Below are positions 58,617 to 59,690 of a stretch of 64,000 nt of DNA, in pieces. The DNA is from Eubacteriales bacterium. Lineage in GTDB: Bacteria; Bacillota; Clostridia; Oscillospirales; JAAYOS01. The DNA lies in contig JBMNIG010000025.1 in the NCBI GenBank assembly GCA_050950785.1, positions 31,775-95,774 of the forward strand, given 5' to 3'. A program made the translations under genes and the position numbers. How positions within the stretch are numbered: position 1 is the stretch's first letter; each line of letters starts with the position of its first letter. The notes under the pieces are model-generated. The model was not told the origin of the DNA. It worked only from the letters and a program-made list of their open reading frames with translations, and searched no databases.

Positions 58617-59494
58617 TGAGGGCTTTATTCGGTCCTGCGGGAAACCCTGATATTTTTACAGAAACTGTAGGCAAGTCTTCGATCAAAATGCCGGCCTGGC
58701 TCAGCGAGATCGGTTTGGACGCATACGAATATCAGTGTGGGAATGGAGTTCGAATTGGTCAAGCTACTTCAGAGAAAATTGGAGCTGAAGCAAGTAAGCA
58801 TGGTATAGCAATTTCGCTTCACGCTCCATACTACATCAGTCTTTCAAACCCGGTATATCTAGAAAAGAATATTGATTATGTACTTCAAAGCTGCAAGGCG
58901 ATAAGGCATATGGGTGGAAAAAGAATCGTTCTTCATTCAGGCTCAACCGCCGGGAGACCAAGAAAGGTAGCATTGGAACAGTCACAGAGGACATTGAAAA
59001 CCATTATCTACGAAATGGACAATGCAGGATTTGGTGATCTGATCCTTTGCCCCGAAACAATGGGAAAGATAAATCAACTAGGCGATTTGGAAGAAGTACT
59101 TCTACTTTGTTCAATCGATGAACGCCTTGTCCCTTGTATAGATTTCGGTCATCTCTATGCCAGAAGTCTCGGTGAACTGGATGGTTACGAAAAGACAGCA
59201 GCGCTATTTGACAAAATGGAGGATGCTCTTGGCTTTGCCCGCACAGCTGTTTTTCATTCGCATTTCTCTAAGATCGAATTTTCAAAGGGGGGCGAAAAAA
59301 GACATCTCACATTCGGTCAATCGGACTACGGACCCGATTTTCGACCGATAGCCAAACTCGTTACAGAACGCTGCTATACGCCTGTTTTCATTTGCGAGTC
59401 GGCCGGAACCCAATCGATCGACGCCCTCGAGATGAAAAGAACATATATGGAAGAACTGGATCGACTTTCTGAATTTGTGGATACTGAAAACTAA
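58616..59494 (+). CDS. Xylose-isomerase-like TIM-barrel protein (endonuclease IV/Nfo-like)
   Basis: About 292 aa with MRALFGPAGNP.., LHAPYYISLSNP, IVLHSG, CPETMGK and IDFGHLYA. ATG at 58616 follows GGAAGGGGAG and overlaps the yqeG stop. Confidence 0.6.
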   Translation: MRALFGPAGNPDIFTETVGKSSIKMPAWLSEIGLDAYEYQCGNGVRIGQATSEKIGAEASKHGIAISLHAPYYISLSNPVYLEKNIDYVLQSCKAIRHMGGKRIVLHSGSTAGRPRKVALEQSQRTLKTIIYEMDNAGFGDLILCPETMGKINQLGDLEEVLLLCSIDERLVPCIDFGHLYARSLGELDGYEKTAALFDKMEDALGFARTAVFHSHFSKIEFSKGGEKRHLTFGQSDYGPDFRPIAKLVTERCYTPVFICESAGTQSIDALEMKRTYMEELDRLSEFVDTEN

Positions 59495-59690
59495 TCTTTT
59501 GAAAAAGTTAAGGGTTCATAGATTTTTTTTGTAAAAGAAAGTCCGGCGGTAATATGTCAAGTAGTTAAAACAAAGAATTTCTAATAAGTTACACCTGGAA
59601 ACGCGTTAGTTTAGTTTTTAAAGGCGCACCTATCTAAGCCCTGCGCAAAATCTATTTTAACAGGGCCTTCTTAAGGGTGGTGGCAGTGTT

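What the first reader, a model, noticed from the sequence alone, without database searches (positions are those of the whole stretch)
59536..59550. Both insertion junctions are written into the transposase leader as 7-8-nt segments that meet at a shared CCGGA
The junctions below are read in transposase orientation (minus strand). Left junction: ..AGTCAA-CCGGA-TTAGCAATGCCC.. (61212-61187). Right junction: ..TATTACCG-CCGGA-CTTTCTTTT.. (59554-59533). On the plus strand the shared pentamer is TCCGG at 59542-59546 and 61202-61206, which implies an element of about 1,660 bp. Three leader segments match these junctions. (a) AGAAAGTC (61119-61112), with a second copy at 61177-61170 next to the -10, is the exact reverse complement of GACTTTCT (59543-59536), which spans the repeat plus the right flank. 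(b) AACCGGA (61101-61095) is identical to the left flank plus the repeat (61208-61202). (c) ACCGCCGG (61082-61075) is identical to the last 8 nt of the element's right end (59550-59543). On a reconstructed empty site, AACCG-GA-CTTTCT, segments (a) and (b) overlap by exactly two nucleotides. On the right junction, (a) and (c) abut on the same G. This geometry is what left/right target guides and a left donor guide would show when they meet at a dinucleotide core. Segments (a) and (b) are separated by 10 nt (TGTTCCCCTG). As I recall it, IS621 has a mini-hairpin spacer at the same place. There are three caveats. The 5'-to-3' order of (a) and (b) is the reverse of what I recall for IS621. The palindromic CCGG makes the exact crossover ambiguous. 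The right donor guide is unclear: it could be TTGCT-GGAT-AATC at 61070-61058 or the long segment 60974-60951. I could not compute a chance expectation. Roughly, a single 8-mer match in a search space this small is not very rare, but three matches that tile both junctions are.
Basis: partly seen in the sequence, partly recalled or inferred. Interest (0 to 1): 0.7.

Follow-up and report, generated by a model that had tools for sequence, protein, structure and literature searches.

The report
IS110 insertion sequence with bridge RNA

Summary
An empty site in a metagenome contig (L057) and four other full or right-end copies put the element at 59542-61267. That is 1,726 bp flanked by a CT dinucleotide (AG on the + strand at 59540-41 and 61266-67), not 1,660 bp flanked by CCGGA. 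Forty-four related elements share a conserved, covarying leader with the published IS621-type bridge RNA layout:
- LTG at 61152-61143.
- RDG at 61003-60994.

Segment (b) is the 5' arm of a structural helix that pairs with 60982-60977; it is not a guide. Guide-to-flank and guide-to-end matches beat all 10,000 permutations. The targets are reverse-complemented Shine-Dalgarno sequences just upstream of start codons. The transposase passes NCBIfam's 'IS110 family RNA-guided transposase' model, and its catalytic residues align with those of IS621. Verdict: a new member of a known kind.

The parts
59542..61267 (-). Complete IS110-family insertion sequence, 1,726 bp counting one copy of the core
   Evidence: Empty site L057 against the occupied window and L058. 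Copies L054, L055 and L059 are 99.8-100% identical over positions 1-1726 in other contexts.
61266..61267 (-). Core dinucleotide CT at the left junction (AG on the + strand)
   Evidence: Present once in the empty site and at both ends of the occupied site. CT precedes CGTATAAT in 39 related loci.
59540..59541 (-). Core dinucleotide CT at the right junction
   Evidence: All right ends read ...GGA|CT.
59691..60920 (-). Transposase/recombinase, 409 aa, DEDD (RuvC-like) domain plus Tnp domain
   Evidence: PF01548 and PF02371. NF033542 'IS110 family RNA-guided transposase', 245 bits against a cut-off of 140. D9, E63, D111, D114 and S327 align with IS621 D11, E60, D102, D105 and S241.
59555..59560 (-). 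-35 hexamer TTGACA in the right end, half of a junction promoter
   Evidence: Joining the ends through one core gives TTGACA-N17-TATAAT (sequence). The hexamer and its 13-nt distance to the core are conserved in relatives. Promoter activity is inferred.
61258..61263 (-). -10 hexamer TATAAT in the left end, the other half of the junction promoter; it also lies within the right donor (RD) sequence read by the RDG
   Evidence: CGTATAAT directly after the core is conserved in nearly all relatives.
61180..61188 (-). Internal extended -10 (TGATATAAT), candidate bridge RNA promoter in the integrated state
   Evidence: Conserved as (A/G)TGATATAAT across relatives, including positions outside any helix. 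No -35 was found. Function is inferred.
61143..61152 (-). Left target guide (LTG) ATTGTCTCCT, 5' side of the target-binding loop
   Evidence: Variable block between conserved AGTTCTT and GTTGAACC. It equals the left flank plus core in relatives, for example L035 CTCGCTCCT 9/9, L007 10/10, L026 9/10, L023 against L024. Permutation 0/10,000.
61127..61138 (-). Hairpin inside the target-binding loop (AACC/GGTT)
   Evidence: 100% of cells paired, 3 of 4 pairs with compensatory changes (helix 4).
61114..61119 (-).
   Evidence: RT+1 matches in 33/35 and RT+2 in 32/35 unique guide-flank pairs. Permutation 0/10,000.
61112..61113 (-).
   Evidence: TC/GA in 36 loci. L037 has CC with a right end ending GG. 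Defined for IS621 in PMC11208158.
61095..61100 (-).
   Evidence: Pairs with 60982-60977. Pair types in alignment columns 124-126: CG 18/AU 8, CG 16/AU 14, CG 23/UA 15.
60977..60982 (-). 3' arm of the same helix (TCCGGT)
61075..61082 (-).
   Evidence: Identical to 59550-59543 of the right end. The variable part tracks the right end in relatives: GACGG, CATTAG, ACCGG, ACCAG. Permutation 0/10,000 only in the register that skips the base next to the core.
60994..61003 (-). Right donor guide (RDG) GATATGCGAG, 3' side of the donor-binding loop, followed by GG at 60993-60992 (candidate handshake)
   Evidence: CGAG pairs with core + CG, and upstream AUA with TAT after a 2-nt skip. Compensatory change in L040, L045 and L049 (left end CT-TG with guide CAAG); partial in L010 and L021.
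61012..61068 (-). Stem (GCTGGA/TCCAGC, then CAGCC/GGTTG) and inner hairpin between LDG and RDG
   Evidence: Helices 6 and 7: 6 of 7 and 8 of 8 pairs with compensatory changes.
61185..61211 (-).
   Evidence: Pairs with 60976-60950. 95.5% and 98.7% of cells paired, 13 of 21 pairs with compensatory changes.
60950..60976 (-).

Best explanation
Window 59542-61267 (minus strand) is a complete IS110-family insertion sequence. Its roughly 220-nt leader RNA (about 61172-60950) is a canonical bridge RNA.

Target-binding loop:
- The LTG ATTGTCTCCT (61152-61143) has the same sequence as the left target plus core, so it pairs with the bottom strand.
- Two handshake bases, TC, follow. After strand exchange they pair with GA at the tip of the right end.

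Donor-binding loop:
- It is closed by the helix 61100-61095/60982-60977.
- It holds the LDG (ACC)GCCGG (61082-61075), which matches the right end.
- It holds the RDG GATA-TG-CGAG (61003-60994), which is complementary to core plus the left end CGTATA.

Recombination occurs at the CT core between a circular form of the element and a target. In the circular form the joined ends create a TTGACA-N17-TATAAT promoter. The target is the reverse complement of a Shine-Dalgarno sequence, so the element lands antisense, a few bases upstream of a start codon. Here that is 4 nt upstream of the first ATG of pepP.

Shown: the element ends, the core, the conserved structure, the guide-DNA covariation and the protein family. 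Inferred: transcription start sites, RNA-protein complex formation, the circular intermediate and the order of strand exchange.
For: - Ends and core: empty site L057 against the occupied window and L058. Four more copies of the same element sit in other contexts with the same ends.
- Protein: PF01548 + PF02371. NF033542, 245 bits. Similarity to the IS621 and ISCro4 structures with all five catalytic residues aligned.
- Leader: conserved at nucleotide level in 44 relatives whose proteins are only 55-83% identical.
- Structure: 92.4% of cells paired against 28-45% in slid controls. 36 of 57 pairs have compensatory changes, and 0 of 500 shuffles reach this.
- Guides: LTG-LT longest common run 6.68 against 5.04 in permutations. 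RTG-RT 3.06 of 4 against 1.65. LDG-LD 5.13 of 6 against 3.73. Each is 0 of 10,000.
- Single compensatory cases: L037 (HSG), L040/L045/L049 (RDG), L023 against L024 and L026 (LTG).
- Layout and strand rules match Durrant et al. 2024 and Hiraizumi et al. 2024.
- Other copies carrying the identical guide sit in related sites, x(T/C)C-CT-T(T/G).
Against: - No expression or activity data exist for this element.
- The window's own left flank matches the LTG in register at only 3 of 8 non-core positions. It matches 6 of 6 plus the core if 2 RNA bases are looped out.
- The LDG matches the right end only if the base next to the core is skipped, unlike the contiguous IS621 pairing. The core-pairing part of each guide is invariant, so it cannot be tested by covariation.
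- The single-sequence fold is no more stable than shuffles (z = 0.01).
- No Rfam family matches.
- LDG and LD lie in the same element, so shared descent inflates that particular permutation test.
Confidence: 0.9

Rival explanations
1. The element is about 1,660 bp, bounded by a shared CCGGA with a GA core. Segment (b) AACCGGA is the left target guide, (a) the right target guide and (c) the left donor guide, with (a) and (b) in reversed order relative to IS621.
For: All the strings exist. Three or more 7-mer matches occur in only 7.5% of shuffles.
Against: - The empty site places the left end at 61267, not 61206.
- Segment (b) sits in a helix with compensatory changes.
- In relatives, the sequence at the position of 61208-61202 does not follow (b).
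- The real empty site is CATTGTC-CT-TTCTTTT.
Confidence: 0.01
2. The conserved leader is only a 5'-UTR that regulates transposase expression. The matches to flanks and ends are by-products, and target choice (Shine-Dalgarno sites) is made by the protein.
For: - The long outer stem and the position next to the transposase ribosome-binding site would suit a regulatory UTR.
- UTR-based regulation is described for the IS110-family element ISPpu9 (abstract of PMC8450116).
- All targets share CTCCT, so much of the LTG match could reflect one fixed preference.
Against: - The variable LTG positions upstream of CTCCT follow the flank locus by locus. Examples are L026 CACGTAACCT against CATGTAACCT, and L023 CCACCTCCT against L024 CATCTCCT.
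- RT+1 and RT+2 follow the RTG in 33 and 32 of 35 pairs. Flanks are not inherited with the element, so descent cannot explain this.
- The two roles are not exclusive.
Confidence: 0.04
3. The element is a decayed, immobile relic, and the guide matches only record a past event.
For: The window's left flank matches the LTG poorly in register. L060 holds a truncated copy.
Against: - The reading frame is intact with all catalytic residues.
- The site is polymorphic: empty in L057, occupied in L058 and the window.
- At least four further copies, 99.8-100% identical, sit in different sites.
Confidence: 0.05

Closest known systems
IS621 / IS110-group bridge RNA recombinases (Durrant et al. 2024, PMC11208160; Hiraizumi et al. 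2024, PMC11208158)
   Same: - DEDD plus Tnp recombinase with aligned D, E, D, D and S residues.
- ncRNA in the left end, upstream of the gene.
- Target-binding loop first, donor-binding loop second.
[quoted passage not shown] The 3' side is complementary to core plus the right half-site.
- CT core and a 2-nt handshake guide after the RTG.
- An RDG that appears to pair discontiguously.
- A promoter formed by joining the ends.
   Different: - The protein is 409 aa against 326 aa, and pairwise similarity is only detectable (E about 1e-11).
- The target is a Shine-Dalgarno sequence rather than a REP-type repeat.
- The LDG match skips the base next to the core.
- An extra long outer stem (27 columns per arm) overlaps an internal extended -10 promoter.
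- Nothing has been tested experimentally.
CazIS110-1 of Caloranaerobacter azorensis (bioRxiv 10.1101/2025.10.25.684509)
   Same: An IS110 element with a bridge RNA in a Clostridia-class host. TBL-only and DBL-only RNA species are reported there. The window has a terminator-like hairpin (61068-61051) after the LDG that could give a short RNA.
   Different: No sequence of CazIS110-1 was available, so relatedness was not tested. The hairpin is not conserved in relatives and is at chance level in the scan.
IS900 / IS901 / IS902 / IS116 group of IS110-family elements (Doran et al. 1997; title seen in reference lists; content from my own knowledge)
   Same: Orientation-specific insertion next to translation initiation signals (ribosome-binding site and start codon) of host genes.
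   Different: Those are actinobacterial elements described before bridge RNAs were known. As I recall it, insertion is between the RBS and the ATG, whereas here the cut is at the 5' edge of the AGGAG. No sequence comparison was made.
IS1111-group seekRNA elements (Siddiquee et al. 2024, PMC11187229)
   Same: DEDD transposase and an RNA-guided choice of target.
   Different: There the non-coding region is downstream of the transposase, the order of the strand-matching segments is reversed, and subterminal inverted repeats are present. Here the RNA is upstream and follows the IS110-type order.

Membership tests
IS110 family, IS110 group (bridge RNA recombinases) | Recombinase with an N-terminal DEDD/RuvC-like domain and a C-terminal Tnp domain carrying the catalytic serine | tested here: met
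   PF01548 (E 5e-29) and PF02371 (E 1e-24). NF033542, 245 bits against a cut-off of 140. D9, E63, D111, D114 and S327 align with IS621 D11, E60, D102, D105 and S241.
IS110 family, IS110 group (bridge RNA recombinases) | Long non-coding left end upstream of the recombinase gene that encodes a structured RNA | tested here: met
   346-nt left end. The leader is conserved in 44 relatives. 36 of 57 pairs have compensatory changes and 92.4% of cells are paired.
IS110 family, IS110 group (bridge RNA recombinases) | No terminal inverted repeats; a short core (here a dinucleotide) present in both target and donor and flanking the inserted element | tested here: met
   CT is present once in the empty site and at both ends of the insertion. 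The same holds in relatives. The ends (CGTATAAT... and ...CCGCCGGA) are not inverted repeats.
IS110 family, IS110 group (bridge RNA recombinases) | Target-binding loop: the 5' segment has the sequence of the left target plus core, and the 3' segment is complementary to core plus the right target | tested here: met
   0 of 10,000 permutations for both segments. RT+1 matches in 33/35 pairs and RT+2 in 32/35.
IS110 family, IS110 group (bridge RNA recombinases) | Donor-binding loop: the 5' segment has the sequence of the right end (LD), and the 3' segment is complementary to core plus the left end (RD) | tested here: met
   The LDG follows LD (0 of 10,000, in the register that skips the base next to the core). 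RDG compensatory change in L040, L045 and L049. Pairing to the core itself cannot be tested because the core is invariant.
IS110 family, IS110 group (bridge RNA recombinases) | Handshake guide after the RTG that pairs with the last bases of LD | tested here: met
   TC/GA in 36 loci, and CC/GG in L037. L021 is TC/GG, which allows a wobble. There is only one clear covarying case.
IS110 family, IS110 group (bridge RNA recombinases) | Circular intermediate whose end-to-end junction forms a promoter | tested here: inconclusive
   The joined ends would read TTGACA-N17-TATAAT, and the spacing is conserved in relatives. No circle junction was observed. L044 has its right end joined to a sequence resembling its own left end.
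IS110 family, IS110 group (bridge RNA recombinases) | The RNA is expressed, binds the recombinase and is needed for recombination | not testable with these tools
   No expression or biochemical data are available.
IS1111 group (seekRNA) | Non-coding region downstream of the transposase; subterminal inverted repeats | tested here: not met
   The structured, covarying RNA is upstream of the gene. The right end is only 149 nt and diverges among relatives.
Rfam families | Match to a curated covariance model | tested here: not met
   No relevant match even at E <= 10 in 59300-61500.

The most novel reading that the evidence does not exclude
This clade of Bacillota IS110 elements carries a bridge RNA programmed for the Shine-Dalgarno consensus. 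Its LTG ...CTCCT resembles the anti-SD end of 16S rRNA. Nearly every gene start would then be a potential landing site, always antisense and with AGGAG left attached to the gene. Natural sites suggest tolerance of 1-2-nt bulges between LTG and target (window, L008, L018, L019, L020). A conserved outer stem spanning the internal promoter may separate transcripts made from the circular form from those made in the integrated state. The paper library held no paper combining IS110, bridge RNA and Shine-Dalgarno.
Probability: 0.35. Interest if true: 0.45.

Novelty: new member of a known kind. Interest (0 to 1): 0.3.

Why it matters
It shows that bridge RNA guides can be spotted from raw sequence. 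The corrected anatomy gives a fully annotated natural bridge RNA with 44 covarying relatives. Its target is a ubiquitous functional motif, the ribosome-binding site. That bears on how such elements spread without destroying coding sequence and on off-target rules (bulges, half matches) for bridge recombinase tools. None of this changes the known mechanism.

Tried and rejected
- Rfam scan of 59300-61500 at E <= 10 gave only two chance hits, a snoRNA and a lncRNA.
- A viral-contig scan with the true left end gave no matches.
- The single-sequence MFE of 61172-60950 is no better than shuffles (z = 0.01) and does not reproduce the covariation-supported helices.
- The RNAalifold consensus missed helices A and B of the donor domain and proposed GCUGUU/AGCAGU and UCGC/GCGA pairs that never vary or are inconsistently kept. 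I replaced them with manually defined helices and tested those.
- The sigma-70 scan did not report the internal extended -10, which has no -35. It cannot see the end-to-end junction.
- LDG-LD in a contiguous register (1.25 of 6) or shifted by 2 (1.73 of 6) is no better than permutations, so those registers were rejected.
- The second AGAAAGTC at 61177-61170 was considered as a second guide or decoy. In relatives only the conserved (A)GTC is shared with the RTG and the variable bases differ. I treat it as coincidence.
- Papers on IS900 in the library did not state the target consensus. That point rests on my own knowledge of Doran et al. 1997.

Full report
**1. The observation**

CCGGA is at 61206-61202 and 59546-59542. 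AGAAAGTC is at 61119-61112 and 61177-61170. AACCGGA is at 61101-61095 and 61208-61202. ACCGCCGG is at 61082-61075 and 59550-59543. The ORF at 59691-60920 (minus strand, 409 aa) carries PF01548 (DEDD_Tnp_IS110) and PF02371 (Transposase_20).

**2. The true ends**

A look-up of contigs encoding exactly this transposase returned three short contigs, L054-L056.
- Beyond that point L054 and the window differ.

A look-up of the neighbouring PepP protein returned two more contigs.
- L057 has the AP-endonuclease-like gene followed directly by pepP. It reads (+ strand) GTAAAAGAAAG|GACAATGGACATG.
- L058 is occupied like the window.

The occupied window reads GAAAG[TCCGGCGG ... TTATACGAG]GACAATGG. The element is therefore 59542-61267, 1,726 bp. 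The only duplicated sequence is AG on the + strand, which is CT in transposase orientation, at 59540-41 and 61266-67.

A metagenome scan with the right end added L059 (full copy) and L060 (truncated copy). All copies start CT|CGTATAAT and end CCGCCGGA|CT. The left junction was wrong by 61 nt, and the 'shared CCGGA' is not the core.

**3. Chance**

- At least one such match occurs in 60% of shuffles.
- At least three occur in 7.5%.
- Two or more 8-mers to the right junction occur in 0.64%; three were observed.

The left-junction match (b) is unremarkable. The right-junction matches (a) and (c) are not.

**4. Relatives and the conserved leader**

A genome-contig scan gave 53 loci encoding relatives that are 55-83% identical, all in Bacillota MAGs and isolates such as Oscillospiraceae, Lachnospiraceae and Anaerocolumna. 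The leader from about position 58 of the element to the start codon is alignable at nucleotide level in most of them, while the right end diverges. The alignment shows conserved blocks separated by four short variable blocks.

**5. What the variable blocks match**

For each locus I extracted the left flank, the core, the first bases of the element, the last 13 bases of the element and the right flank.
- **Block 1** (window 61152-61143, ATTGTCTCCT) has the sequence of the left flank plus core. Examples: L035 CTCGCTCCT 9/9, L007 TTATTCTCCT 10/10, L006 10/10, L031 10/10, L026 CACGTAACCT against CATGTAACCT, and L023 CCACCTCCT against L024 CATCTCCT, each equal to its own flank.
- **Block 2** (61119-61114, AGAAAG) is the reverse complement of core plus right flank. 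RT+1 matches in 33 of 35 unique pairs and RT+2 in 32 of 35.
- **The two bases after block 2** (TC, 61113-61112) complement GA at the tip of the right end. In L037 they are CC and the right end finishes GG, so AGGAAGCC is the exact reverse complement of GGCTTCCT.
- **Block 3** (61082-61075) equals the right end just inside the base next to the core. Examples: L001 GACGG, L008 group CATTAG, L031 ACCGG, L034 ACCAG.
- **Block 4** (61003-60994, GATATGCGAG) complements core plus the left end. L040, L045 and L049 have CT-TGTATAAT with CAAG in place of CGAG.

Permutation of guide-DNA pairings gave 0 of 10,000 for LTG-LT, RTG-RT and LDG-LD. For LDG-LD this holds only in the register that skips one base.

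**6. Comparison with the published layout**

Durrant et al. 2024 describe the first internal loop as target-binding and the second as donor-binding. The 5' side of each pairs with the bottom strand over 8-9 nt. The 3' side pairs with the top strand over 4-7 nt. The core is included in all four pairings, and the RDG pairs discontiguously. Hiraizumi et al. 2024 define two handshake bases after the RTG that pair with positions 6-7 of the donor after strand exchange.

The element here follows this layout point by point. The 'reversed order' caveat came from taking (b) as the LTG. The real LTG lies 5' of (a).

**7. What (b) is**

RNAalifold on 38 distinct leaders pairs 61100-61095 with 60982-60977. 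My structure keeps this helix and adds two manually defined helices. On that structure 92.4% of cells are paired (slid controls 28-45%), 36 of 57 pairs have compensatory changes, and 0 of 500 shuffles reach this. In the (b) helix the pair types are CG 18/AU 8, CG 16/AU 14 and CG 23/UA 15. Segment (b) is therefore a structural arm that closes the donor-binding domain.

The copy it was matched to (61208-61202) lies in the 5' arm of a long outer stem, 61211-61185 with 60976-60950, which also covaries. 'TTGCT-GGAT-AATC' is part of helix A.

**8. The target**

The left flank plus core is nearly always ...CTC-CT. In 28 of 33 loci with enough flank, an ORF of 60 codons or more starts 5-21 nt beyond the junction on the opposite strand. 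The element therefore inserts at the 5' edge of an AGGAG Shine-Dalgarno sequence, antisense to the gene.

In the window the site is AAAGAAAG|GACAATGGACATG, upstream of pepP. Other copies of the same element lie at GGAAAG|GAGTCTATGCGATG (L054) and ATAAAG|GGAGGCATTATTGTG (L059).

The window's own left flank matches its LTG poorly in register, at 3 of 8 non-core positions. ATTGTC-CT against ATTGTC[TC]CT fits if two RNA bases loop out. Several relatives show comparable 1-nt offsets.

**9. Protein membership**

- NF033542 'IS110 family RNA-guided transposase' scores 245 bits against a cut-off of 140.
- phmmer finds ISCro4 (9t56) and IS621 (8wt6) in the PDB.
- D9, E63, D111, D114 and S327 align with IS621 D11, E60, D102, D105 and S241, allowing for a +2 offset in the deposited chain.

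**10. Promoters**

Joining the ends through one core gives TTGACA (59560-59555), 17 nt, then TATAAT (61263-61258). The hexamer and its spacing to the core are conserved. An extended -10, TGATATAAT (61188-61180), is conserved just upstream of the bridge RNA body. Both promoters are inferred.

**11. Verdict**

This is a new member of a known kind. The core, the left end, the element size, the LTG and the RDG were wrong, and (b) is a helix arm. The Shine-Dalgarno targeting, the skipped base at the LDG, the bulged natural sites and the outer stem are modest points of interest. I found no paper in the library that links bridge RNAs to Shine-Dalgarno targets. Insertion next to translation signals is, from my own knowledge, long known for IS900-type IS110 elements (title seen).

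Noticed in passing
window 61185-61211 with 60950-60976 (minus strand): A long outer stem (27 alignment columns per arm, 21 pairs) encloses the whole bridge RNA and covaries in relatives. Its 5' arm covers the region just upstream of, and overlapping, the internal extended -10. It can therefore only be in RNA made from an upstream start, such as the junction promoter of the circular form. A near-repeat of the arm's first bases (GTCAATCAGG, 61172-61163) could pair with the same 3' arm in shorter transcripts.
   Followed up: partly
window 61143-61152 against 61266-61275; also L008, L018, L019, L020 left junctions: Natural insertion sites where LTG and left flank match well only if 1-2 bases are looped out. 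Window: ATTGTC[TC]CT against ATTGTCCT. L019: CAAATC-TCCT against CAAATCCTCCT. This suggests bulge-tolerant target recognition or slipped sites.
   Followed up: partly
window 59542 and 61073-61082; all relatives: The LDG equals the right end only if the base next to the core (A, rarely G) is skipped: LD xxxxxG-A-CT against LDG xxxxxG-CT. The skipped base is one of the two read by the handshake guide.
   Followed up: partly
L044:3838-3880: The right end of this relative is joined through CT to CGTATATAT, which resembles its own left end (CGTATAAT) and not its RTG-predicted target. It may be a remnant of an end-to-end junction or an insertion into a donor-like site.
   Followed up: no
L060 (reverse strand, about 1965-2247): A truncated copy of the same element. 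Only the last 282 bp (positions 1445-1726) are present, preceded by unrelated sequence.
   Followed up: no
window 61051-61068 (minus strand): A terminator-like hairpin, GCUGGAUAAUCAGCCAGC followed by CUCUUUU, lies just after the LDG. It competes with the family-conserved helices. It could give a short RNA holding mainly the target-binding loop, as reported for CazIS110-1. It is not conserved in relatives and is at chance level in the scan.
   Followed up: no
window 61268-61280 (+ strand): The insertion leaves GAGGA 3 nt upstream of the first ATG of pepP (61272) and 9 nt upstream of the second (61278). A Shine-Dalgarno-like sequence is therefore regenerated from the element's terminal CGAG plus the flank. 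The second ATG has the better spacing and may be the real start.
   Followed up: no
window 61217-61235 (minus strand): A hairpin GGTGA-N9-TCACC lies in the first 50 nt of the left end, between the junction -10 and the outer stem. It is also present in the closest relatives (L002, L003), and its role is unknown.
   Followed up: no
window 61170-61177 (minus strand): A second AGAAAGTC sits right after the internal -10. In relatives only (A)GTC is shared with the RTG, so the full 8-nt identity looks coincidental.
   Followed up: yes
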